DNA from: an uncultured virus (IMG/VR IMGVR_UViG_3300020048_000045) | Taxonomy: Duplodnaviria > Heunggongvirae > Uroviricota > Caudoviricetes | DNA length: 59,522 bases | Reading direction: 5' to 3' (one strand) | IMG/VR virus record: IMGVR_UViG_3300020048_000045 | Part shown: positions 2,201 through 29,302 of the stretch, one piece after another | Position numbering within the stretch: the first letter of the stretch is position 1 | Layout: each line of letters opens with the position of its first letter | The notes under the pieces: generated by a model | Seen by the model: the letters and a program-made list of their open reading frames with translations, nothing else | Databases searched by the model: none | Told to the model about the DNA's origin: nothing | Position numbers and translations under genes: made by a program

Positions 2201-2688
2201 GTTTACCTCATTTTTTAATTAATTAAGTTATAAATATACAAAATAATCTCCATAGTTACNNNNNNNNNNNNNNNNNNNNNNNNNNNNNNNNNNNNNNNNN
2301 NNNNNNNNNNNNNNNNNNNNNNNNNNNNNNNNNNNNNNNNNNNNNNNNNNNNNNNNNNNNNNNNNNNNNNNNNNNNNNNNNNNNNNNNNNNNNNNNNNNN
2401 NNNNNNNNNNNNNNNNNNNNNNNNNNNNNNNNNNNNNNNNNNNNNNNNNNNNNNNNNNNNNNNNNNNNNNNNNNNNNNNNNNNNNNNNNNNNNNNNNNNN
2501 NNNNNNNNNNNNNNNNNNNNNNNNNNNNNNNNNNNNNNNNNNNNNNNNNNNNNNNNNNNNNNNNNNNNNNNNNNNNNNNNNNNNNNNNNNNNNNNNNNNN
2601 NNNNNNNNNNNNNNNNNNNNNNNNNNNNNNNNNNNNNNNNNNNNNNNNNNNNNNNNNNNNNNNNNNNNNNNNNNNNNNNNNNNNNNNN

Positions 2689-11755: not shown

Positions 11756-12067
11756 TTATTTCTTTTTACATTGTTCAAGAAACTTAGTTAAATCAAGCAG
11801 AGCATTGCTATAGCCAATCTGCCTCTCAGTGACCCGTGAATGAACAAGATCTGGTTGTGAGTCTGCTATCCATTTCTCCAGGTCTGTATACATTCCTTGT
11901 TTGTGGAATGCTTCAGCTTCAGGAGACATAGCCCCCACTTTAAAAGTGTCATACACTTTAATTGCAGTAGAATTAAAATAAGCTTCTTCTTCTAAATCAG
12001 CATGCTCTTTAATATGTGCATGTTTCAGGGCTGCTGTTTCTATTTTCTTTTTAAGAATGTCTTCCAT
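11756..12067 (-). CDS. Hypothetical protein
   Basis: ORF packing. Confidence 0.55.
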   Translation of the reverse strand: MEDILKKKIETAALKHAHIKEHADLEEEAYFNSTAIKVYDTFKVGAMSPEAEAFHKQGMYTDLEKWIADSQPDLVHSRVTERQIGYSNALLDLTKFLEQCKKK

Positions 12068-12075
12068 AGGATCAC

Positions 12076-12115
12076 AAATAAAAAGGTCTTGCCCTCAATC
12101 AAGAAGACAAGACCT
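12076..12115 (-). terminator. Rho-independent terminator
   Basis: AGGTCTTGTC...GGCAAGACCT hairpin then TTTTATTT. Confidence 0.75.
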
Positions 12116-12215
12116 ATGTTTAACAAATTAGTGCCATTTCTATCTAGTTTTCACCAAATATACCCACTTTTCACGACAAATCTGTCATATCGTTGTAAAA
12201 TTACACGAATCTGGG

Positions 12216-12422
12216 TTATTTTTTCTTGATGGCATACCTCATAGAATCACGCATGGCCTGCATTGAACATCTGTAAGCAGCAACGGTAGCACGAACTGTG
12301 ACAATGTCAGCACTTTTGTCAAAAGACTCTGAACATGCTTTGCCAATTTCATAACAGCTGTCCTCAATGTTCTTCAATTTGTCTACTCTACTCAGTTTAA
12401 CGGTTTCCTTACTTGCTTTCAT
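12216..12422 (-). CDS. Hypothetical protein
   Basis: ORF directly downstream of 12434..13177. Confidence 0.55.
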   Translation of the reverse strand: MKASKETVKLSRVDKLKNIEDSCYEIGKACSESFDKSADIVTVRATVAAYRCSMQAMRDSMRYAIKKK

Positions 12423-12433
12423 CTTGCTTGAAA

Positions 12434-13177
12434 TTAAAGTTGATTTATTAATTGTTTAATTGCTTCCAGGTGATTTAAAATCTCTTGCTTCTTTGTAGCA
12501 ATATTCTTCAGATCGTTGAGCAGTGTTTCTATTGCTCCTACAGGAGAGGAAACAGTTGCAGGAACAGCTGTTGCTGCTCTACGTTTCTCCCAACTTTTCT
12601 TCATTTTTTCACTGTGCAGCTTTGTCTTCAATTCTGCTTCAGTCAGTCCTGCAACACTTTCTGCAGCCAGTGTTGCAATAGACTGATCTGTAAGCTTCTC
12701 AGCTTTTCTCTTTCTCCACATCTCTTTCATCGAGTTGCTCATTTTTGCTTTTGTTAATTCGGGTGTGTTTGTTTTCATAACTTCTTCTTGTTTTGATTGA
12801 TTATTAATTACTTGTTTTAACTTTCTTACTGCTTTTATATTCTCTCTGTATCTCTCAATTTGCTCTTGTGTGATTTGAGACCTATCTATCTTTTCTCCTG
12901 TACTATTATAAATTGTAAGATAGATAGATTGTCTAATGTAATTGTCTGTTAGATTGTCACGTTCTTTTTGTCTTGCTCTGTTCAATGCTAATCTTCCTAC
13001 TGGAGTGTTTCGATATTTCAACATGTTTTTATTGTGCCTGTCTCTGTTATTAATTACCCACTCCCTTGCGATCCTATTGCTACAAGTCTTACATACAAAA
13101 TCTCCTGTCTTTCTTTTATACCACACATGATCTTTGCATTTCTTGCACTCTTTCTCTGGAATAGTTAACGCTGTCAT
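12434..13177 (-). CDS. Zn-finger protein with NUMOD3-like basic repeats
   Basis: CKKC...CKTC; TKAKMSNSMKEMWRKRK and HSEKMKKSWEKRR repeats. Confidence 0.55.
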   Translation of the reverse strand: MTALTIPEKECKKCKDHVWYKRKTGDFVCKTCSNRIAREWVINNRDRHNKNMLKYRNTPVGRLALNRARQKERDNLTDNYIRQSIYLTIYNSTGEKIDRSQITQEQIERYRENIKAVRKLKQVINNQSKQEEVMKTNTPELTKAKMSNSMKEMWRKRKAEKLTDQSIATLAAESVAGLTEAELKTKLHSEKMKKSWEKRRAATAVPATVSSPVGAIETLLNDLKNIATKKQEILNHLEAIKQLINQL

Positions 13178-13180
13178 AAT

Positions 13181-13609
13181 CTAAAACGCTCTTATTATTA
13201 CTTTTCCTTCATGTAGTATTGGATTTATTGCTTCATAATTCTCATCTAATTCATCTACCTCTATTTCTATAAATCCATCGTGTTCCTGGAAGATCTTGTT
13301 AATGTCTTTGAGCTCTATGTCCCTGTATTCATCAACATTATCTCCTTCATCGAACCAAGCAATCTGCTCGTGTCTTGCAAGCACCCAGCCATCATTAGGA
13401 TCAATGACCATAAGATGTACTGGATATCCATATTTATCAAAGACATCATCAATCTTGTTAAATCCTGCTTGACTAAAGCTTTTTTTAACTTGCCATAATT
13501 CAATCCTTGCCTTATCTGTACCTGGATTTAACGTATTCATAAACATCATTCCAGGCTCAATTGTCTCAGGTATGTAGTTTGACACTACTAGTTCTCCTAA
13601 ATAGTACAT
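13181..13609 (-). CDS. Hypothetical protein
   Basis: 142-aa ORF on the coding strand. Confidence 0.65.
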   Translation of the reverse strand: MYYLGELVVSNYIPETIEPGMMFMNTLNPGTDKARIELWQVKKSFSQAGFNKIDDVFDKYGYPVHLMVIDPNDGWVLARHEQIAWFDEGDNVDEYRDIELKDINKIFQEHDGFIEIEVDELDENYEAINPILHEGKVIIRAF

Positions 13610-13654
13610 ATCTTCATAGTTTTTGCATTATTTTTATAGCTGTGATAATAGAGC

Positions 13655-13689
13655 AAAAAAGAGGGGCCCCAAAACTGGTAGCCCCTCTC
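13655..13689 (-). terminator. Rho-independent terminator
   Basis: AGAGGGGC...GCCCCTCT hairpin followed by TTTTTT. Confidence 0.8.
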
Positions 13690-13709
13690 AACCCAAACCC
13701 AAATCTAAC

Positions 13710-14009
13710 CTATAACTCTTCTAATACCTTCTCTAGTTTATCAACTACGTCCTCATAACATGCTTTGCAATCTCTTGCAAAATTTGTACATGCATCATGA
13801 TGTTTACATAGATGTGCAGGGCCTTTTTTATCATCAATATTCTTAATCTGTTCCCTGTATATCCCTATAATAGCTTCAATGAGCCTCTTTCTCTCCCTAA
13901 GGTATTTCTCCATAGAGGGAACAATAAGATCATTGATGTATCCCTCATCCAAAATGACTTCCTTAGGATGATCTTTCATAAGCTGATGTAGTGTTTGCCA
14001 TTCCATCAT
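13710..14009 (-). CDS. Hypothetical protein
   Basis: 99-aa ORF with C/H cluster. Confidence 0.55.
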   Translation of the reverse strand: MMEWQTLHQLMKDHPKEVILDEGYINDLIVPSMEKYLRERKRLIEAIIGIYREQIKNIDDKKGPAHLCKHHDACTNFARDCKACYEDVVDKLEKVLEEL

Positions 14010-14178
14010 GCGAAATATCTAATCCATGTAAGAATGAGATGAGCGATGTGATGTCCCAATGTCCCCATGATCAAACCAAGAAGACATGAGAGAAAAATCG
14101 TTTCATATACATTGTAATGCTTTTCTGAAAAATTGTGTTTATTCATGTTTTATGATTTAAAGATTATAAGGGAGGTTG

Positions 14179-14251
14179 AGCCAGTAGTAGGATTCGAACC
14201 CACGACATACTGAATACAAATCAGCCATTCTACCATCTGAATTATACTGGC
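14179..14251 (-). tRNA. tRNA-Thr(UGU)
   Basis: Cloverleaf: GCCAGTA/TACTGGC acceptor, anticodon arm GCTGA-TTTGTAT-TCAGT, GTGGG-TTCGAAT-CCTAC T-arm. Confidence 0.92.
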
Positions 14252-14255
14252 ATAG

Positions 14256-14328
14256 TAACGCTGGCACGATTCGAACATGCGACCCAGGCTTATGCGATGC
14301 CCGTACTCTACCACTGAGCTACAGCGTT
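14256..14328 (-). tRNA. tRNA-like RNA with 9-nt non-canonical anticodon loop
   Basis: AACGCTG/CAGCGTT-A acceptor, intact D and T arms, anticodon stem CGGGC/GCCTG enclosing ATCGCATAA. Confidence 0.75.
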
Positions 14329-14332
14329 GTGT

Positions 14333-14474
14333 AATCCCCTTTAACGCAGGGGATCAGTTTCGTGCTTACGCAGCCAGTCTAACTGGTTGTAAAGCAAGTG
14401 TTCTTGTTTTGCCTGTTATGGCTTGATGCTTCTCTTACTATCTGCTTCATCGCCTGTCAAAACCAGTCACCCCC
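14333..14474 (-). ncRNA. ssrA: tmRNA coding piece (5' tRNA-like half plus tag reading frame) of a permuted ssrA
   Basis: Starts GGGGGTGACTGGTTTTGACAGGCG; ATAACA then tag frame 14413-14366 = GKTRTLALQPVRLAA*; terminal hairpin GATCCCCT/AGGGGATT. Confidence 0.9.
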
Positions 14475-14544
14475 TTATAAGGTTTAGGATACAGCAGTCA
14501 ATCTCATCTGTATCCTCTAACTTCAACAATTAATTGAACTGAAG

Positions 14545-14562
14545 TGGAGGTGAGGGGAGTCG
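14545..14562 (-). ncRNA. ssrA: tmRNA acceptor piece, exon 2 (3' T-arm and acceptor strand)
   Basis: CGACTCCCCTCACCTCCA; CACCTCC pairs with GGGGGTG giving G3-U70 and discriminator A. Confidence 0.9.
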
Positions 14563-14970
14563 CTATCCCTCTATTTGGAAGAATCTCATAACAAGAGTAT
14601 TTCTCTCTTGTTGTTCCTCATCTGTATACTTACCATTTCTTTTTGTCTTGGCTTGTATAAGATTGTAGGTTTCGATTCTGTGCTTCTTTTTAGGATGGAT
14701 GCTCATCAGCTTATTAGCAACTTTTAATCCACTTTGATAAGAATATTTAAGCTCAAAGGAGACTCCATGATGTTCTTTAAGTTTATCCTTTTTAGAGATA
14801 AAACCTTTAACACCTATGTCAATAAGAATAAACTTCTGGATTTCTTCAAGTATTGTCCTCTCATTGTTATGAAAACTTACCTGAATAGTCTTGTTCTTAC
14901 CCTTATTGTTACTAATTGCTGTGACACTTCCATCTGCGTCAAAGAAACCTGTGATATAATCCCAATTCAT
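14563..14970 (-). CDS. Single-motif LAGLIDADG homing endonuclease (135 aa)
   Basis: MNWDYITGFFDADGSV; located after P7/P9 inside the intron. Confidence 0.88.
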   Translation of the reverse strand: MNWDYITGFFDADGSVTAISNNKGKNKTIQVSFHNNERTILEEIQKFILIDIGVKGFISKKDKLKEHHGVSFELKYSYQSGLKVANKLMSIHPKKKHRIETYNLIQAKTKRNGKYTDEEQQERNTLVMRFFQIEG

Positions 14971-14987
14971 AGCTTTACAGTTTATTG

Positions 14988-15019
14988 TAAAGATAGGGGA
15001 AATATACATCACCTCCAAA
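14988..15019 (-). promoter_or_regulatory. Bacteroidota-type promoter inside the intron, upstream of the endonuclease
   Basis: TTTG-N20-TATCTTTA, 17 nt upstream of the ATG at 14970. Confidence 0.65.
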
Positions 15020-15228
15020 TATATTCTACAATTTCTTGTAGGATTGGACTATATCATCACCTGTTCTAGGTGTTGGATGCTGTAGGCTCACCGTAGTGTC
15101 CTTAGTCTCTGAACCTTCCTTGATCTTCCCCAAGGCTTGGCTGCTGATTACCTTATCTTCCCAGACTTAGGGTTCCAGCAATTCATCCAATTTTTAATTA
15201 TACATCCCTGTATAATGGGTCCAACTCG

Positions 15229-15262
15229 AACCCCTGTCCAAACGACTGCCTATAATCGTCAA
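15229..15262 (-). ncRNA. ssrA: tmRNA acceptor piece, exon 1 (5' end approximate)
   Basis: GTCGTTTGGACAGGGGTT; GTCGTTTG pairs with CAGGCGAT of the coding piece (helix 2). Confidence 0.85.
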
Positions 15263-15272
15263 CAAAACATCG

Positions 15273-15351
15273 TAACGCTAAATGGATTCGAACCACTGAC
15301 CCAGGCTAATGTTTGGCTGTGCCTGTACTCTACCAACTGAGTTATAGCGTT
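15273..15351 (-). tRNA. tRNA-like RNA with 14-nt non-canonical anticodon loop
   Basis: AACGCTA/TAGCGTT-A acceptor, D arm, CAGGC/GCCTG stem enclosing ACAGCCAAACATTA, AGTGG-TTCGAAT-CCATT T-arm. Confidence 0.75.
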
Positions 15352-15359
15352 ATATACCC

Positions 15360-15822
15360 TCCTCTCAAGCTATAATAAATAGCGGTGTCAGATTTGGGTT
15401 ATCTCTGTCTGTTCCAGAGTGTCAAAGAATAACAAATAATCAAATGATTAGCACCCTCTTGTCTTACTACACCAGCCCTTTATCAAAAAGGTTGAGGTTC
15501 TTATGTTAACTCTGGTTCATAATATCTGTTATAATAAGAGTAGGGTCACGATGATTTAGGTTGGCTCACCTTAAGGGTTAGTACTCTCATATCATCTTGC
15601 TTGAGACTCATTCGTGTTGTGATGTTTGTGGTCAGGGCTGTGTACGTTAGCCTCAAAGACACTTCTTAACACCTTCTAATCATGCACCCTTTCTCAAGGA
15701 GCAACACGTTACGACTTTCATCGTACATCTTTATGCGAATTGAAGGGAAGTTGTTGCCAACTGCATGCATTTCTGCATCTGCCACGACTTATTCACATCA
15801 GGGTCACTGTTTAGCCTGTTTA
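15360..15822 (-). ncRNA. Candidate large structured ncRNA (unassigned)
   Basis: No ORF of 60 aa or more; four GNRA-capped hairpins on the minus strand and further stems. Confidence 0.6.
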
Positions 15823-15828
15823 ATTTAA

Positions 15829-16010
15829 AAACTACCTGTCCACTTACTAAGTGTGGAATATATGGAATAGGAAATACCCACTGCTCCTATTTTCAAGAGT
15901 CATCCGACTCTTAGGTCTATCAATATCTTATCGCAAACAAACATCCTTCTTAGCAAGGATTATCGAACGCTTAAAGCAGATTCAACTGTTTGCATTTCAG
16001 CAGGCAGTTT
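15829..16010 (-). ncRNA. Candidate ~180-nt multi-stem ncRNA (unassigned)
   Basis: Closing helix AAACTGCCTG/CAGGTAGTTT enclosing at least four hairpins. Confidence 0.55.
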
Positions 16011-16014
16011 AAAA

Positions 16015-16290
16015 TTATTTCTTCAATGTTGCATTCAGACTGTCTAACATTTGAATAGCTTGTGGATAGGTTGTGTATCTATCCAATACAATACTTTCAT
16101 CTGCTTGCCAGTCTATATCAACAACAATTTTAGGAGATGCTCCATTATTGTTACACGTTGAATTAAGATAATAGCCTCTTACTTTATGATCAGCTGTAAA
16201 AGCTCTTATAATAACAGCAAATATAACAATACAGGCTAATGTTATAAAAAATGTAATAACATTGCCCCAAAAGTCTTCATCAAATTTCAT
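16015..16290 (-). CDS. Hypothetical membrane-anchored protein
   Basis: N-terminal hydrophobic helix. Confidence 0.6.
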   Translation of the reverse strand: MKFDEDFWGNVITFFITLACIVIFAVIIRAFTADHKVRGYYLNSTCNNNGASPKIVVDIDWQADESIVLDRYTTYPQAIQMLDSLNATLKK

Positions 16291-16850
16291 TTCAGAGTGT
16301 ATTTAACACCACCAACAATGAGGTATTGAATGGTCCTTGGATCCACCTGACGAATCCTTGATGAAGGATCATTAGCAGGAAGCTCCATATCCACGAACTT
16401 TACACGTCCCAGGTCATCGAGCTCACCATAATGGCGACCTTTCATAACCCTTAACTCTCCAGGGATAACCTTAGTGATAGGATTTTCAATCAGATCGTTC
16501 AACAGTCTTTCAACTTGTGAAACCTTGGCATTGCTTATCTCAGCAATCTTTGCAGCTTTCTCAGCTTCATAAGCTTTCCTTGTCTTGGATGTGTCTTTCT
16601 TCATGAAAGCTACAGTCATAGCAATACGTGGGCTATTCAGGAACAGTTCTGCAAGCTCTGTCATGCTTTTCTTCTCTTCTGATTCAAAGACATCTGCACT
16701 TGCCAAGACTTGCTCAACATACTTCTCACCAATAGTGACATCTCTGCCTGCATCATCAGTGACAATAATCTTGCCAACCTGAATCTCTTTCACAACATAG
16801 AAAGAGGTTTCACTCAATACACTTCCTTTTTTCAATGAACTTGTTTTCAT
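16287..16850 (-). CDS. Hypothetical protein
   Basis: 187-aa ORF downstream of the vWA gene; RQVDPRTIQYLIVGGVKY. Confidence 0.7.
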   Translation of the reverse strand: MKTSSLKKGSVLSETSFYVVKEIQVGKIIVTDDAGRDVTIGEKYVEQVLASADVFESEEKKSMTELAELFLNSPRIAMTVAFMKKDTSKTRKAYEAEKAAKIAEISNAKVSQVERLLNDLIENPITKVIPGELRVMKGRHYGELDDLGRVKFVDMELPANDPSSRIRQVDPRTIQYLIVGGVKYTLK

Positions 16851-16868
16851 ACGTAATTGTTTGCTAAA

Positions 16869-17660
16869 TTATTCAATGTTTTTGTAAAATCCAACACTTA
16901 CATCATTTCCTGCTACAACATTGGCTGCATAAGCTGTCCTGGCTGATCGTGTCTTTGCAAGACCTTTCTCAAGACCCTGTGCAGTACCATCATAGACATG
17001 TGTGTTACTTATGTCAATCTTCACTTGCTGATTGACAAACTTTACATCCTGCTCAGTACCAATGAATGTGACAGTCCAGCCATGTTTGGCACGATCCTCA
17101 ATCATCTGGGAGATTTCAGTTGCTCTGTATTCCATGGAATCATTCTCTCCACCATCTGTGTAGATGTTCATCAATACCTTGTCTCCTTTACGGAAATAAG
17201 CTGAAAGCTTGCTGAATGTCTTACCAATGGCATCCCACAAAGCTGTGTAACCATCAACATTGATATTAATTTCACAAACTTTCTCAGGATCGTTCATAAC
17301 ATGAGGAAACTCAATCTTGTTATGACTGGAGAATGCACACAATGTATATGTGTACTTTACAGCTCCCTGTTTCAGATCTCTCAATGATGCATTAATACCA
17401 TTATTGGCAGCCTTAATCTTCCCACCTTGCATAGATCCACTCTTGTCAAGAATATCGACAATATGGATTACGGGGACAGAAGCTCCAGGCTTCTTTCCTA
17501 CTTTTACTTTCACCTTCACCTCAATCTTTGGAGCTTCATTGGTAGAAAGGAAGTGAATGTACGCTGCTGCACTGGGATAACCTTCCCTGTTTGCTTTCTT
17601 TTCTCTCGCTGCTTTGTTTAGCTTGATAAAACTTGTTAGTAATTCTGCTTTTGTTTTCAT
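16869..17660 (-). CDS. von Willebrand factor A domain protein
   Basis: MIDAS DKSGSM, GYTALWDAI, YTDGGEN. Confidence 0.88.
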   Translation of the reverse strand: MKTKAELLTSFIKLNKAAREKKANREGYPSAAAYIHFLSTNEAPKIEVKVKVKVGKKPGASVPVIHIVDILDKSGSMQGGKIKAANNGINASLRDLKQGAVKYTYTLCAFSSHNKIEFPHVMNDPEKVCEININVDGYTALWDAIGKTFSKLSAYFRKGDKVLMNIYTDGGENDSMEYRATEISQMIEDRAKHGWTVTFIGTEQDVKFVNQQVKIDISNTHVYDGTAQGLEKGLAKTRSARTAYAANVVAGNDVSVGFYKNIE

Positions 17661-17683
17661 TAATAACTATTTTGATTATGTAA

Positions 17684-17715
17684 TAAAGATACAAATAATT
17701 TATAACATAAACAAT
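17684..17715 (-). promoter_or_regulatory. Bacteroidota-type promoter for the vWA operon (may also drive the RNA island)
   Basis: ATTG-N20-TATCTTTA just after a terminator. Confidence 0.55.
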
Positions 17716-17716
17716 T

Positions 17717-17753
17717 AAAATAGCCCTCATTTTTTTAATTAGAGGGCTATTTT
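17717..17753. terminator. Bidirectional rho-independent terminator
   Basis: AAAATAGCCCTC...GAGGGCTATTTT inverted repeat. Confidence 0.8.
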
Positions 17754-17760
17754 CAATTAT

Positions 17761-18132
17761 TTACAAGTTATCAAGCTCAGCCTGCAACTCTTCAAGACTC
17801 TTCGCAGAAAGGGCCTCATTTTGCTTCTGTGAGATCAATTCCATGATCTGAGCTTTACGTGCCTTCTTCTCAGCAGCCAGCTTCTTCACTTCAGCTTCTT
17901 CAAGTTTCACCTTGATGACATGCTTCACTATGTCAAATCCTAATTCCAATGTAGTATTGGATTTACTCTTGACAGTAATGAAACTCTCTTCAGCTTCAGC
18001 CTTGATCTTTCTGTTCAGATCCTTTGCAATACTATCCAGGCTGGTAAGGGTAAGATCCCAAAGATCTTCCACGTTAATAATTCCTACTGAGGAATTGAAA
18101 CGCAATTTTAATCTACTCGCTTTTTCAAACAT
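17761..18132 (-). CDS. Conserved phage coiled-coil protein
   Basis: MFEKASRLKLRF...VEDLWDL; recalled as the usual partner of the upstream large protein. Confidence 0.7.
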   Translation of the reverse strand: MFEKASRLKLRFNSSVGIINVEDLWDLTLTSLDSIAKDLNRKIKAEAEESFITVKSKSNTTLELGFDIVKHVIKVKLEEAEVKKLAAEKKARKAQIMELISQKQNEALSAKSLEELQAELDNL

Positions 18133-18143
18133 TGTAATTGGTT

Positions 18144-20168
18144 TTAGAAATTAACTTTTAATACCCTTGTAAATGCTCCTTCTACTCTGCATACAATGTG
18201 TGCTTTGTTGGTGGATGAGAAGCCAAGTCCACTCAACTGATCATCTGAAGGAGCAACTTTCATCTTATCCCCCAGTGCTTCAAACACACGTTTTTGTGCC
18301 ATCAGATCTTCCTTAAGGAATTCATTGAAGAATCCCCTTGGTGTTTCTGGATTCTTACACTTGTCCAGCATGAAGAATGTGTGCTTGTTTCCTACACCCT
18401 GACCATCCCAATAGTTGGGAGAAGCCATGATCATTGCTACCTTCTGAAACTGGTTTGTCTTAACGCCCCATACATCAGTGGATTTAACAGAACCAAGCTT
18501 GCTGTCAATCAATGATTTAACAGTGAATACACCATTCTCAAGTGTTACCTCAGCAATATTAATCACACCTTTGGCATTCCCTGTATAAGAGAAATTATAC
18601 ACCTGACCATCACACTCAACTTCAGCTGTGAATCCTGTGTTATGTCCTCCATCATAGTTATGAATAGACATTACATAGGTTCCGTTCAGCATTTTGTTGA
18701 GATCAGTCCAGGTGATGTTCTCTACACCAACTTTGGAAGGCCTGATCATATCCACATCAAGCATACCTGACATAGGCGTTTGTCTTCCCTTGAAAGTATT
18801 AAATGCAATATGTTGACCATTTCTGCCAGGCTCTTGTGCATGAGCATCAAAGTCACAGATCGAACGACCATCCTCATTCCACTGAATAGAGAACCTTAAC
18901 ACGCCTGAAACATTACCACCAGCAGCTTTAACACGTTCCTTCATGGAATCAGCAACATTGTTGTTGTATGCCCAGGAGAATCCATTGTTCCATTTGAATA
19001 ATGAAGGTGCATCTGATTTGGCAGGAGCAATCAAGCTTACAAGGTTCCCTGTATGCTGATTCTCTACAAGCACCTCAATGGTTGCAGCCTTAGGCACAAT
19101 CTTTTCAATAAAGTCATTTATTGAAACTTCTTCCACCTTTGAATAGGCCTTAGGATTAGTTGGCAACTCTTCCTTCAGGGATCCAAATACATCAGGAGCA
19201 TTGGCTTTCTTTGTCTCTCTGTCTACGAACAGGACATTGTTGACAGTGATGTCATCAACATGTGCATAACGTCTGCCCAGGGAATCAACCAATCCCATCT
19301 CCTGAAGCTTCAGCTGAGCTTCTTCAATCTGTTTCTTGGTCAGTAGAGCTGTAGGTCGTTTGTAATTTGCAGGAGCCATAATACGCTCAAATGCCCCAAC
19401 AGCATAGTCCAGTTCTTTTCCTTCAGATATATCTGTAAGAAGAGTACCAATAGCTGTGCTTCTGATCTTAACGACAGTTGCACCATGCTTGCTGTACTCA
19501 GCCCAGCAGTAATTGTCCTTCTGGTATGCAAGTTGCAGACTGTTGTAATTTTGTTTGAGTTTGAGGAATGCTTCAACCACACCCTTGAACTCAGCTCCCC
19601 TATAAATAGAGTTCTGCTCAATCAGTTCCAGGGTTGTGTTCAGTGCATCCACTGTGATCTCTTCAAGGCTACGCTTGAATGAATTACGTGTATCTCTTGC
19701 AAGACCACGTTTCTCATCCAATGATTCACCTCTGCCTAACCTTGTAACAAGATTGGCAGGCAGTATCACCTGGAAATGGTTCCAACGCTTCACTCCACCA
19801 CCTTCAAGTTGCTCAAAGTTATGGTCTGTTCCCAATTTGGGAACGTCAGAGACAAATATATCCCTGATTGGTGCTGATATAACCAATTGATTCAGGTGAG
19901 CAGCAACAGTCTTGAATGGCTCATCACAATCAATGTCCCACATAGATGTCACCTGGTTGTTCACAATAGCCACCACATTGGCGTAGGGCTTCAAGAACTG
20001 TCTGCATGAATTACAATTGTGATCTTGTCTTGTCTCCTCAGGAAACGCATTGAGATAGGTATCCCATATGAGATCTTTAGGAACATCTGTCAGATACAGT
20101 TGTGTCTGGCCAGTAATCATCAACTGGAACCTCTGCTGAAGTTTTGCTTTAAATTCTTCGAATGTCAT
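18144..20168 (-). CDS. Large conserved phage protein with YfaP-like domain
   Basis: Start taken at MTFEEF; HNCNSCRQF, DFDAHAQEP...LDVDM...VENITW, QLSGLGFSST motifs. Confidence 0.7.
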   Translation of the reverse strand: MTFEEFKAKLQQRFQLMITGQTQLYLTDVPKDLIWDTYLNAFPEETRQDHNCNSCRQFLKPYANVVAIVNNQVTSMWDIDCDEPFKTVAAHLNQLVISAPIRDIFVSDVPKLGTDHNFEQLEGGGVKRWNHFQVILPANLVTRLGRGESLDEKRGLARDTRNSFKRSLEEITVDALNTTLELIEQNSIYRGAEFKGVVEAFLKLKQNYNSLQLAYQKDNYCWAEYSKHGATVVKIRSTAIGTLLTDISEGKELDYAVGAFERIMAPANYKRPTALLTKKQIEEAQLKLQEMGLVDSLGRRYAHVDDITVNNVLFVDRETKKANAPDVFGSLKEELPTNPKAYSKVEEVSINDFIEKIVPKAATIEVLVENQHTGNLVSLIAPAKSDAPSLFKWNNGFSWAYNNNVADSMKERVKAAGGNVSGVLRFSIQWNEDGRSICDFDAHAQEPGRNGQHIAFNTFKGRQTPMSGMLDVDMIRPSKVGVENITWTDLNKMLNGTYVMSIHNYDGGHNTGFTAEVECDGQVYNFSYTGNAKGVINIAEVTLENGVFTVKSLIDSKLGSVKSTDVWGVKTNQFQKVAMIMASPNYWDGQGVGNKHTFFMLDKCKNPETPRGFFNEFLKEDLMAQKRVFEALGDKMKVAPSDDQLSGLGFSSTNKAHIVCRVEGAFTRVLKVNF

Positions 20169-20214
20169 ATTCTTAGGGTTTAAAAAGGGTGACATTTCTG
20201 CCACCCTTTGATTA

Positions 20215-20997
20215 TTACTTCATCAACAATGAAAATGGCTGATTGCCATACAATGGAACCTTTGTGTCCCTCCAAGCCTGGATCATTTCCCATTGCAATA
20301 TCTGGGGAGTTAATCCTCTTGAACGAATGATGTTCTGTTGTGCCTTCAGTTCCTCAAGTTCATTAAGCTTACGTTGCTCAGCTATCTGTTGATCCAACAC
20401 AGTCAGGTTTGTATTAACCTCGTTACGTTTATCAATCTTTTCTGTAACAGCAGAAGTAAATTCCAGCTGAGCTGAGAAAGACAACAAGTCCAATCCACGT
20501 TTATTAAATGCTTCCTTTACAATATCCTGAAGACGGTTCTCAAATGCTAAAGAGCCACCATCTGCCATCAACTGCTCAGTTTTGAACTTCCTGGATTCTT
20601 CCTTAATAAGATCATAGATCATAGGCTCAAGAACATTATCCATCAATGCATCCATAAAGTTATCATCAGATCCTAATTGCTTATTGTCAAAGACAACATC
20701 AACAGCTCTGCTTTCAATGATCCTGAATGAATACATAGGACGGGAAGAGAATGCTGTATTGTCTGCAGACTTCAAATTCAAGACCCTGTCACCAAATGTA
20801 CCACGCTGTTCCCATAAAGGGACAGTGAATAACTCTGTACCAGGAGCAGCTGTCCACACTTTTCCTTTCTGAAGGGAGAAGTCACTTTTCCCATTCTTAC
20901 CATAGTTGGTCATCAACACTCCCTGCTCATTAGGTCCTACACGCTCACAGCTCACAAGAGCAAATACGAACATCACAAATAACAATAACTTCTTCAT
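20215..20997 (-). CDS. SPFH/band 7 domain lipoprotein
   Basis: Lipobox LVSC, ERVGPNEQGV, SRGLTPQILQWEMIQAW. Confidence 0.85.
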   Translation of the reverse strand: MKKLLLFVMFVFALVSCERVGPNEQGVLMTNYGKNGKSDFSLQKGKVWTAAPGTELFTVPLWEQRGTFGDRVLNLKSADNTAFSSRPMYSFRIIESRAVDVVFDNKQLGSDDNFMDALMDNVLEPMIYDLIKEESRKFKTEQLMADGGSLAFENRLQDIVKEAFNKRGLDLLSFSAQLEFTSAVTEKIDKRNEVNTNLTVLDQQIAEQRKLNELEELKAQQNIIRSRGLTPQILQWEMIQAWRDTKVPLYGNQPFSLLMK

Positions 20998-21155
20998 TGG
21001 TTTTCTTTATTAAATTGTTTGAATAAATACACAAATAATGCGACCACATTTGTAAACACTATTCCAAGCCCTATCCATGCATCAATGTGATTAAATGATA
21101 GAAAGGCAACATACATAACCACCAGGAATAATCCCAGTGCAACGAAATACTTCAT
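20994..21155 (-). CDS. Small two-helix membrane protein (53 aa)
   Basis: Manual ORF MKYFVALGLFLVVMYVAF..., overlapping the SPFH start. Confidence 0.6.
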   Translation of the reverse strand: MKYFVALGLFLVVMYVAFLSFNHIDAWIGLGIVFTNVVALFVYLFKQFNKENQ

Positions 21156-29048: not shown

Positions 29049-29302
29049 NNNNNNNNNNNNNNNNNNNNNNNNNNNNNNNNNNNNNNNNNNNNNNNNNNNN
29101 NNNNNNNNNNNNNNNNNNNNNNNNNNNNNNNNNNNNNNNNNNNNNNNNNNNNNNNNNNNNNNNNNNNNNNNNNNNNNNNNNNNNNNNNNNNNNNNNNNAA
29201 TGATGTGCAAGACTGTTTAGTTCTTGCCAATGCTGAATAGGCATTGTGTCTTGAGGTGTCCCAATGGTAGGCCCATAACTATATTACACACATCATTATA
29301 CT

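What the first reader, a model, noticed from the sequence alone, without database searches (positions are those of the whole stretch)
14563..15228. Group I intron in the tmRNA T-loop whose endonuclease stop codon is the 3' splice site
Seen: P1 GGGTTC/GGACCC puts a U-G pair at the last exon U (15229); the guide GAGTTG pairs with 3' exon CGACTC (P10); catalytic core motifs are intact; splicing restores GGGG-TTCGACT-CCCC. The LAGLIDADG ORF lies downstream of P7/P9, and the G of its TAG stop (14563) is exactly the intron's terminal G, so coding and splicing constraints overlap at one base.
Basis: partly seen in the sequence, partly recalled or inferred. Interest (0 to 1): 0.8.

Follow-up and report, generated by a model that had tools for sequence, protein, structure and literature searches.

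The report
Self-splicing intron inside a phage two-piece tmRNA gene

Summary
On the minus strand, Rfam's group I intron model matches 15239..15025 (100.3 bits). U15229 pairs with G in P1, and GAGTTG pairs with the 3' exon CGACTC (P10). A 135-aa single-motif LAGLIDADG ORF (14970..14563) follows P9, and the G of its TAG is the intron's last base.

Removing 15228..14563 in silico restores GGGG-TTCGACT-CCCC. An uninterrupted homologue from metagenomes aligns across the junction without a gap.

- **Permuted host gene.** The order is acceptor piece, about 70-nt spacer, then coding piece with tag GKTRTLALQPVRLAA.
- **Phage context.** The gene lies in a roughly 120-kb phage contig, flanked by tRNA-like genes.
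- **The stop/3'-splice-site overlap is a family habit.** In 14 related same-strand introns the stop lies 0-6 nt from the 3' exon, and the G is shared in 7.

Group I introns in the tmRNA T-loop, including this position and LAGLIDADG genes after P9, were published in 2025. All 17 related intron-bearing genes that I could classify are standard one-piece genes; only this one is permuted. Splicing is inferred, because no RNA data exist. I rate it a new variant of a known kind, of moderate interest.

The parts
15273..15351 (-). tRNA-like element directly upstream of the acceptor piece. It is a paralogue of the downstream tRNA-Cys and has a 14-nt anticodon loop. Its probable role is as a processing signal that sets the 5' end of the acceptor piece.
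   Evidence: Rfam tRNA 52.7 bits with 14 nt in place of the 7-nt loop. ARAGORN does not call it. The uninterrupted homologue L254 also has a tRNA-like 3' end directly before CGAT.... The processing role is inferred.
15229..15272 (-). 5' exon: the 5' part of the tmRNA acceptor piece. It holds the P2 strand GUCGUUUG, the T-stem 5' strand AGGGG (15235..15231) and T-loop bases 1-2 (UU).
   Evidence: Read. Aligns without a gap to L254. RNAcofold gives P2a and a longer inter-piece helix.
14563..15228 (-). Group I intron, 666 nt, inserted between T-loop bases 2 and 3.
   Evidence: Rfam RF00028 at 100.3 bits. Boundaries come from U-1/G, the terminal G, P10 and the empty-site homologue.
15025..15228 (-). 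Ribozyme part, P1 to P9, with a hairpin between P7 and P3' as in subgroup IA.
   Evidence: Rfam alignment. RNAalifold on 10 related introns gives 60 pairs, 30 of them with compensatory double changes.
14971..15024 (-). Conserved block between P9 and the endonuclease start codon (TTTGGAGGTGATGTATATTTCCCCTATCTTT...). Its function is unknown.
   Evidence: Conserved in 6 of 10 aligned introns. It resembles the recalled Bacteroidota promoter TTTG-N19-21-TAnnTTTG, but that motif is not enriched in the window: 3 matches against 1.36 expected.
14563..14970 (-). Single-motif LAGLIDADG homing endonuclease gene, 135 aa. The TAG stop is 14565..14563, and its G is the intron's terminal G.
   Evidence: Pfam LAGLIDADG_3 at 32 bits. 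199 homologues at E<=1e-3. Homodimer model score 0.69 against a best control of 0.00.
14545..14562 (-). 3' exon as far as the discriminator: T-loop bases 3-7 (CGACT), T-stem 3' strand CCCCT, acceptor 3' strand CACCTCC, and discriminator A14545. Only one C of CCA is encoded.
   Evidence: Read. The 19-mer starting here is directly preceded by ...GTT in 120 of 120 viral-contig matches.
14475..14544 (-). Intervening spacer between the acceptor piece and the coding piece. It would be removed by tRNA-type processing.
   Evidence: ARAGORN permuted call. Alignment with 17 uninterrupted permuted phage tmRNAs and with L254.
14329..14474 (-). Coding piece: GGGGGTG (acceptor 5' strand, G3 opposite U70), a D-arm analogue, P2, the tag reading frame 14413..14366 (GKTRTLALQPVRLAA, stop TAA) and a 3' hairpin.
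   Evidence: ARAGORN after in-silico splicing. Rfam tmRNA_permuted partial match at 25.5 bits on unspliced DNA. Cofold.
14178..14328 (-). tRNA-Cys (14328..14255) and tRNA-Thr (14251..14178) directly downstream. RNase P cleavage at tRNA-Cys would set the 3' end of the coding piece.
   Evidence: ARAGORN and Rfam. The processing role is inferred.

Best explanation
A phage of about 120 kb carries a circularly permuted tmRNA gene. The acceptor piece of that gene is interrupted, between T-loop bases 2 and 3, by a mobile group I intron.

Inferred maturation:
1. One precursor is transcribed: tRNA-like element, acceptor-piece 5' exon, intron, 3' exon, spacer, coding piece, tRNA-Cys, tRNA-Thr.
2. The intron folds. 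Its guide 5'-GAGUUG|GACCC-3' lines up both exons through P1 (with U-1 opposite G) and P10. Guanosine attacks after U15229, and the terminal G14563 then directs exon ligation. This rebuilds the T arm AGGGG-UUCGACU-CCCCU.
3. Only then can the acceptor/T-arm stack form with GGGGGUG, 70 nt downstream. RNase P, 3' processing and CCA addition can then release a two-piece tmRNA.

The intron's 135-aa LAGLIDADG protein, probably a homodimer, would cut intron-less tmRNA genes at the T-arm DNA and so copy the intron in. That target is contiguous in both standard and permuted genes, which explains how an intron family otherwise seen in one-piece tmRNA genes of Bacteroidota and their phages entered a permuted gene.

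The ORF fills the whole segment between P9 and the 3' splice site, so its TAG ends on the terminal G.

Shown here: the anatomy, family membership, the exon junction by comparison, and covariation in the core. Inferred: splicing, processing order, endonuclease activity and target.
For: - Intron: Rfam RF00028 at 100.3 bits. P1, the U-G pair, P10 and the terminal G were read directly.
- Core: 10 related introns share P1-P9, with 30 of 60 pairs showing compensatory double changes.
- Host gene: ARAGORN finds no tmRNA in the DNA as it stands. After removal of 15228..14563 it finds a permuted tmRNA.
- Empty site: two metagenome contigs (L254, L255) hold an uninterrupted permuted homologue, scoring 64 bits against RF04321 (gathering 47). 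It aligns gap-free across the junction, and its T stem shows a compensatory change, GGAG/CUCC against GGGG/CCCC.
- Uninterrupted sites elsewhere: the 3'-exon 19-mer is directly preceded by ...GTT in 120 of 120 viral-contig matches, by GGGGTT in 109.
- Two-piece fold: cofolding the two pieces gives the 7-bp acceptor stem, the T arm and P2.
- Endonuclease: Pfam LAGLIDADG_3 and 199 homologues. The homodimer model scores 0.69 against a best control of 0.00; the mark was reached by 20 of 30 proteins solved as pairs and 1 of 23 solved as single chains; runs agree in >=96% of contacts; pLDDT >=82. The interface lies on residues 1-14, the LAGLIDADG helix. The pass may reflect likeness to solved LAGLIDADG dimers.
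- Relatives: viral and Bacteroidota loci have homologous introns at the same T-loop position with the same gene after P9.
- Second study: a 151-nt contig from a freshwater metagenome covers 14517-14663, across the 3' splice site, with 3 differences and 1 gap.
- Phage context: terminase, portal, major head protein and DNA polymerase.
Against: - There is no RNA evidence.
- Rfam's tmRNA_permuted model scores only 25.5 bits on the window (gathering 47), because the intron removes the 5' half of the T arm.
- ARAGORN tolerates junction shifts of +-2, so its call does not fix the junction.
- CCA is not encoded beyond one C. ARAGORN reports the tag as 'not identified'.
- The phages that share a neighbouring 187-aa gene (46-66% identity; four of the five loci, the fifth being a 22-residue match of 86%) have no tmRNA or intron in the stretches fetched.
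- A minor 99-nt contig in the probable source sample bypasses the whole cassette, so the cassette is dispensable or recent.
- No intron-less allele of this same phage was found.
Confidence: 0.82

Rival explanations
1. The locus is a decaying relic. Either the intron no longer splices or the permuted tmRNA is not functional, so the arrangement is a dead end left by a homing event.
For: - The cassette is absent from syntenic relatives.
- A minor contig in the probable source sample bypasses it.
- The tag is unusual and CCA is not encoded.
- The tag-proximal region 14385-14451 has diverged in the second study's contig.
Against: - Every core helix is intact in the window's copy and P10 has 6 bp.
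- The ORF is full length, with all 25 family-invariant residues.
- The acceptor stem, G3-U70, the T arm and P2 are all complementary.
- The same layout passes Rfam's cut-off in the uninterrupted homologue.
Confidence: 0.1
2. The overlap of the stop codon with the 3' splice site is itself selected. For example, it could couple the end of translation to 3' splice-site use, or limit endonuclease synthesis from the excised intron, which would end exactly on UAG.
For: The ORF ends within 0-6 nt of the 3' exon in 14 of 14 distinct same-strand relatives, and the G is shared in 7 of them. A review states that ORFs which extend into core sequences require controlled expression (PMC3984707, passages).
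Against: - The other 7 relatives place TAA, TAG or TGA 1-6 nt upstream of the terminal G, so the shared base is not required.
- Three of the 7 sharing cases (L138-L140) are close relatives.
- The same endonuclease family also sits antisense after P7/P9, or outside the gene. The family therefore does not depend on this layout.
Confidence: 0.15
3. Assembly artefact: the cassette 14263..15317 comes from another genome and was joined in through shared tRNA 30-mers.
For: In the probable source run the cassette is a separate 1115-nt contig. It is bounded by 30-mers that an alternative 99-nt contig also shares.
Against: - Cassette depth (7.4) matches its flanks (8.26 and 7.89), while the alternative path has depth 2.6.
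- A run from another study holds pieces of both the flank (14072-14222, identical) and the cassette.
- The uninterrupted homologue L254 has the same layout of tRNA-like element followed by the acceptor piece.
Confidence: 0.03

Closest known systems
Intron-form tmRNA genes: a group I intron in the T-loop. First reported for Clostridium botulinum (Williams 2002, recalled; it is reference 11 of PMC11915505). Extended to 883 sequences in PMC11915505.
   Same: A group I intron in the T-loop, bounded by U-1 and a terminal G. It sits at internucleotide position 3, one of the four published subsites, which the paper reports only from Bacteroidia. It carries a LAGLIDADG gene after P9; the paper reports 4 of 23 endonuclease genes there (passages).
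   Different: The published form is a standard one-piece gene, and the paper's Table 3 lists Standard, Permuted and Intron as separate forms. Here the interrupted gene is permuted and lies in a phage. The stop/terminal-G overlap is not mentioned in the passages I read.
Permuted (two-piece) tmRNA genes, Rfam RF04321 tmRNA_permuted. Found in Alpha- and Betaproteobacteria and Cyanobacteria, and in a marine methylophage (PMC9004378, search listing only).
   Same: The gene order is acceptor piece, spacer, coding piece. The acceptor stem forms between the two pieces, and a tag frame ends in LAA. The uninterrupted homologue L254 scores 64 bits. ARAGORN called 34 uninterrupted permuted tmRNAs with the identical T arm among 120 viral loci.
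   Different: This copy is split by an intron, so the Rfam model reaches only 25.5 bits. Maturation therefore needs splicing before tRNA-type processing.
Phage group I introns whose ORF lies 3' of the catalytic core (phage T4 nrdD/sunY intron; recalled, not read here).
   Same: The ORF lies between P9 and a distant 3' splice site, which P10 has to bring back to the core.
   Different: The host here is a structural RNA gene, not a protein-coding gene. The endonuclease is a single-motif LAGLIDADG protein, and the ORF runs to the last base of the intron.
Homodimeric single-motif LAGLIDADG homing endonucleases (I-CreI type; recalled).
   Same: The size is about 135 aa with one LAGLIDADG motif. The predicted dimer interface lies on that helix. 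The target region contains an inverted repeat (the T stem) around TCGA.
   Different: Sequence similarity to solved structures is weak: best E 0.013, to one half of I-OnuI-type monomers. Cleavage and the target site are untested.

Membership tests
Group I intron (Rfam RF00028) | Match to the covariance model above the gathering score | tested here: met
   100.3 bits against 50, over the full model 1-253.
Group I intron (Rfam RF00028) | U at -1 in a U-G wobble pair in P1, and a G as the last intron base | tested here: met
   U15229 lies opposite G15221 within GGGUUC/GGACCC, and G14563 is the last base. Among the shifted junctions tried, this is the only one with both features and a 7-nt T-loop.
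Group I intron (Rfam RF00028) | Conserved core helices P3-P9 supported by covariation | tested here: met
   RNAalifold on 10 introns gives 60 pairs, 30 with compensatory changes. P7 itself is invariant, so it carries no information. RNAalifold paired the exon's UGGAC with GUCCA instead of forming the canonical P7.
Group I intron (Rfam RF00028) | Self-splicing with guanosine and Mg2+ | not testable with these tools
   No RNA run is listed for the locus.
Permuted tmRNA (Rfam RF04321) | Match above the gathering score (47 bits) | tested here: not met
   The window's DNA as it stands scores 25.5 bits, because the intron removes the 5' half of the T arm. The uninterrupted homologue L254 scores 64 bits. 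The spliced sequence could not be given to the Rfam tool.
Permuted tmRNA (Rfam RF04321) | Acceptor piece before coding piece; a 7-bp acceptor stem with G3-U70; a T arm; a tag frame with a stop codon | tested here: met
   ARAGORN calls a permuted tmRNA after in-silico splicing. CACCUCC pairs with GGGGGUG, and cofolding supports this. The tag is GKTRTLALQPVRLAA followed by a stop.
Permuted tmRNA (Rfam RF04321) | Encoded CCA tail | tested here: not met
   The discriminator A is followed by CTT, so CCA would have to be added after transcription. The homologue L254 also lacks it.
Intron-form tmRNA gene (PMC11915505) | Group I intron at T-loop internucleotide position 2, 3, 7 or 8 | tested here: met
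   Position 3, TT^CGACT.
Intron-form tmRNA gene (PMC11915505) | Otherwise standard one-piece gene order | tested here: not met
   This gene is permuted. Of 21 related intron-bearing loci, 17 were called as standard and 4 gave no call.
LAGLIDADG homing endonuclease | Pfam LAGLIDADG domain above the cut-off, with the acidic motif residues kept | tested here: met
   PF14528 at 32 bits against 22.5. GFFDADGS is invariant in 30 homologues.
LAGLIDADG homing endonuclease | Site-specific cleavage of the intron-less allele | not testable with these tools
   Only the candidate target, the uninterrupted T-arm DNA, is known.

The most novel reading that the evidence does not exclude
After splicing, the free intron is an mRNA whose last three bases are its own stop codon, with no 3' UTR at all. 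A ribosome finishing the endonuclease on that RNA sits at an RNA 3' end, which is the kind of complex that tmRNA-SmpB acts on (recalled). If so, the yield or tagging of the endonuclease could be gated by trans-translation, the very function the intron interrupts and restores. That would be a feedback loop between a mobile intron and its host RNA. Separately, this would be the first described tmRNA gene that needs both self-splicing and tRNA-type cleavage, a fourth gene form.
Probability: 0.1. Interest if true: 0.8.

Novelty: new variant of a known kind. Interest (0 to 1): 0.5.

Why it matters
tmRNA genes are catalogued in three forms: standard, permuted and intron-split. This locus combines the last two. 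That shows a homing endonuclease aimed at the T-arm DNA can cross between gene architectures and between cells and phages.

It also gives a natural test of processing order. The RNase P and 3'-processing substrate cannot form until the ribozyme has ligated the T-loop.

In practice, neither ARAGORN nor Rfam's gathering threshold finds this gene as it stands. Such genes will therefore be missed in phage and metagenome annotation.

Tried and rejected
- **Whole genome:** none is held for this window.
- **Close phage relatives in GenBank:** megablast of 12000-21000 found nothing.
- **Leptolyngbya phage Lbo-JY46:** it is the best terminase hit (41% identity) but has no tmRNA_permuted or group I intron match above cut-off.
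- **Synteny relatives:** the five loci found through the 187-aa neighbour gene showed no tmRNA or intron in the stretches fetched.
- **RNA evidence:** no RNA holder is listed. Laying four DNA runs gave no joint at the splice sites, and so no intron-less allele of this phage.
- **ARAGORN as a junction test:** it tolerates shifts of +-2.
- **Bacteroidota-type promoter reading of the block after P9:** the motif is not enriched in the window, with 3 matches against 1.36 expected and 15 of 100 shuffles reaching 3.
- **Pairing of that block with the intron's 3' end:** 8 bp form in the window, but the pairing is not kept in L129 by eye, so I dropped it.
- **Solved structures by sequence:** only weak hits, best E 0.013.
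- **Supplement of PMC11915505:** the text as held was cut, and my term search hit only model and alignment files. I did not see Table S2, which might list a permuted gene with an intron under another label.
- **Loci left out of the stop-to-exon count:** L133 (ORF broken after residue 96), L134, L181, L196 and L197 (no recognisable 3' exon), L137 (contig end), L143 and L144 (partial matches).

Full report
**Observation**

The finding lies on the minus strand.
- The 5' exon ends ...GTCGTTTGGACAGGGGTT at U15229.
- The intron begins CGAGTTGGACCC and ends ...GAGGGATAG at G14563.
- The 3' exon begins CGACTCCCCTCACCTCCAC.

Rfam's Intron_gpI model matches 15239..15025 at 100.3 bits (gathering 50, E 8e-25) over its whole length.
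- P1 is GGGUUC/GGACCC, with U15229 opposite G.
- The adjacent guide GAGUUG pairs with CGACUC of the 3' exon (P10: 6 bp, one G-U).
- The intron's guide 5'-GAGUUG|GACCC-3' is therefore complementary to 11 contiguous bases of the ligated exons.

I shifted both splice sites by -4 to +4, giving 81 combinations.
- ARAGORN still called a tmRNA for many neighbouring junctions, so it does not fix the junction.
- Because CGA is repeated at the start of both the intron and the 3' exon, three other diagonal shifts give the same product. They lack U-1 or the terminal G.

**The endonuclease gene**

The ORF 14970..14563 encodes 135 aa.
- It matches Pfam LAGLIDADG_3 at 32 bits against a cut-off of 22.5.
- It has 199 homologues at E<=1e-3, mostly of 133 aa.
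- In an alignment of 30 homologues the start MNW and the motif GFFDADGS are conserved.
- Similarity to solved structures is weak, best E 0.013, and covers one half of I-OnuI-type monomers.
- A two-copy model scored 0.69 against a best control of 0.00. The mark was reached by 20 of 30 proteins solved as pairs and 1 of 23 solved as single chains. The runs agree in >=96% of contacts, and pLDDT is >=82. The interface lies on residues 1-14, the LAGLIDADG helix.
- Homodimeric LAGLIDADG structures are solved, so this pass may only show likeness to them.

**What the host gene is**

ARAGORN finds no tmRNA in the DNA as it stands. After removal of 15228..14563 in a script it calls a permuted tmRNA with tag GKTRTLALQPVRLAA.

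The order on the minus strand is:
1. tRNA-like element, 15351..15273
2. acceptor-piece 5' exon, 15272..15229
3. intron
4. T-loop remainder, T-stem 3' strand, acceptor 3' strand and discriminator A14545
5. spacer of about 70 nt
6. coding piece starting at GGGGGTG, 14474
7. tag frame, 14413..14366
8. a hairpin
9. tRNA-Cys and tRNA-Thr

On the unspliced DNA, Rfam's tmRNA_permuted model reaches only 25.5 bits, below its 47-bit cut-off.

Cofolding the in-silico-spliced acceptor piece with the coding piece gave several helices at -69.5 kcal/mol:
- the T arm
- the 7-bp acceptor stem (G3 opposite U70)
- P2a, GUCGUUUG/CAGGCGAU
- a further inter-piece helix

**Comparative proof of the junction**

In 120 of 120 it is directly preceded by ...GTT, in 109 by GGGGTT and in 84 by GGACAGGGGTT, which is an uninterrupted T arm.
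- *Gene forms among them.* ARAGORN called 34 of these loci as permuted tmRNAs and 19 as standard, with no call in 67, many of which hold only about 600 bases.
- *A closer homologue.* A 24-mer from the coding piece found two metagenome contigs, L254 and L255. They hold an uninterrupted permuted tmRNA with tag GNTNSMMKAAA, scoring 64 bits against RF04321.
- *Alignment.* It aligns to the window's joined exons at 71% identity over 267 positions. There is no gap at the junction: GTCGTTTGGACAGGGGTT|CGACTCCCCTCACCTCCA against GTCGTTTGGACAGGAGTTCGATTCTCCTCACCTCCA. The T stem shows a compensatory change.
- *Shared layout.* It too is preceded by a tRNA-like 3' end followed by CGAT.

**The intron family**

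Searching with an alignment of the endonuclease found 36 loci in bacterial and archaeal genomes.
- The 14 best (E<=7e-9) are all Bacteroidota by record title: Prolixibacteraceae, Saprospiraceae, Flavobacteriales, Vicingaceae, Marinoscillum, Ekhidna, Flavobacteriaceae and Phaeodactylibacter.
- The other 22 are weak partial matches.
- The same search found 49 viral loci, 31 of them at E<=1e-10.

I examined 47 of these loci plus the window. Ten same-strand introns align at 75% mean column identity. RNAalifold gives 60 pairs, 30 of which have compensatory double changes. These cover P1, P2, P3, P4, P5, P6/P6a, a hairpin between P7 and P3' (as in subgroup IA), P8 and P9. RNAalifold paired the exon's UGGAC with GUCCA instead of forming the invariant P7. 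I read that as an artefact.

**The stop codon at the splice site**

In the 14 distinct same-strand relatives with a recognisable 3' exon, the stop codon lies 0-6 nt from the exon.

| Bases between stop codon and 3' exon | Loci |
|---|---|
| 0 (G of TAG is the terminal G) | window, L129, L132, L138, L139, L140, L170 |
| 1 | L130, L136 |
| 2 | L169 |
| 3 | L135 |
| 5 | L131 |
| 6 | L167, L173 |

- L138-L140 are close relatives of one another.
- L168 shows the same sequence as L167 over the stretches printed, but on another contig. L176 and L195 are re-fetches of L129 and L130.
- Eight loci were left out of the count; they are listed under Tried and rejected.

The ORF thus always fills the segment between P9 and the 3' splice site, and sharing the G is common but not required. 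The same endonuclease family also occurs antisense after P7/P9 in tmRNA introns, and as a convergent gene abutting the 3' end of an intron-bearing tmRNA gene.

**Gene form of the relatives**

After in-silico splicing, ARAGORN classified 17 of 21 related loci as standard one-piece tmRNA genes and gave no call for 4 (L129, L174, L178, L194). Only the window is permuted. L129 reads as standard by eye.

**Context**

- The window encodes terminase, portal, major head protein, DNA polymerase and helicases.
- The endonuclease's own contig is 121,522 bp.
- The best terminase match is a Leptolyngbya phage (41%), followed by crAss-like and Cellulophaga phages. The host is therefore unresolved.
- The Gly-first tag and the Bacteroidota relatives of the intron point weakly to Bacteroidota.
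- The probable source is an aquatic metagenome. A freshwater run from another study holds a 151-nt contig across the 3' splice site with 3 differences and 1 gap.

**Literature**

PMC11915505 (passages) describes three tmRNA gene forms.
- It reports 883 intron-form sequences, with introns at T-loop positions 7, 2, 3 and 8. Position 3 is reported only in Bacteroidia.
- LAGLIDADG genes occur in 23 of 844 introns, 4 of them after P9.
- Its Table 3 has no permuted-plus-intron class.
- I did not see its Table S2.

Other sources:
- The preprint 10.1101/2020.01.27.920355 (part 1 of the text) gives the boundary rules.
- PMC3984707 (passages) states that endonuclease ORFs can extend into core sequences.
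- PMC4383926 (passages) adds nothing on this.
- Searches for tmRNA with group I intron, permuted tmRNA with phage, tmRNA with LAGLIDADG, and two-piece tmRNA with intron listed no paper on an intron in a permuted tmRNA gene (listings only).

**Verdict**

The intron-in-T-loop theme, the insertion position and the endonuclease placement are already published. The stop/splice-site overlap is a recurrent by-product of a compact 3' end. What appears new is the combination with a permuted, phage-borne tmRNA gene.

Noticed in passing
window 15273-15351 (-), and L254 about 320-385: A tRNA-like element with a 14-nt anticodon loop lies directly upstream of the acceptor piece. It is a paralogue of the downstream tRNA-Cys (both start AACGCT). 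Rfam scores it 52.7 bits, but ARAGORN does not call it. The uninterrupted homologue L254 has a comparable uncalled tRNA-like end in the same place.
   Followed up: partly
window 14262 to 15318 (run X1): In the probable source sample, a minor 99-nt contig (depth 2.6 against 7.4) joins the two tRNA paralogues through 39 other bases. It skips the whole tmRNA-intron-tRNA-Cys cassette. This suggests a co-occurring strain without the cassette.
   Followed up: no
L171, L172, L177, L178, L180; L141, L142, L174, L175, L179, L182-L194: The same LAGLIDADG family occurs in two other layouts. In one it is antisense inside tmRNA T-loop introns after P7/P9, at loop positions 3, 7 and 8. In the other it is a convergent free-standing gene whose stop abuts the 3' end of an intron-bearing tmRNA gene.
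   Followed up: partly
L005-L123, L216-L253: Many viral contigs carry tmRNA genes with exactly this T arm and acceptor end. ARAGORN called 34 as permuted and 19 as standard among 120 loci. Another 30 of 38 loci that share the window's 22-base 5' domain were called as standard. Several permuted ones have Bacteroidota-like tags ending in YALAA.
   Followed up: partly
window 14971-15024 (-): A block between P9 and the endonuclease start codon is conserved in 6 of 10 related introns. It resembles a recalled Bacteroidota promoter consensus, but that motif is not enriched in the window. Its role is unexplained.
   Followed up: partly
window 2260-2688 and 29049-29198: Two runs of N (masked stretches) lie in the window, far from the finding.
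   Followed up: no
L125 10167-10270: A syntenic relative holds a 104-nt match to the tRNA model (37.2 bits). It may be an interrupted or unusually long tRNA.
   Followed up: no
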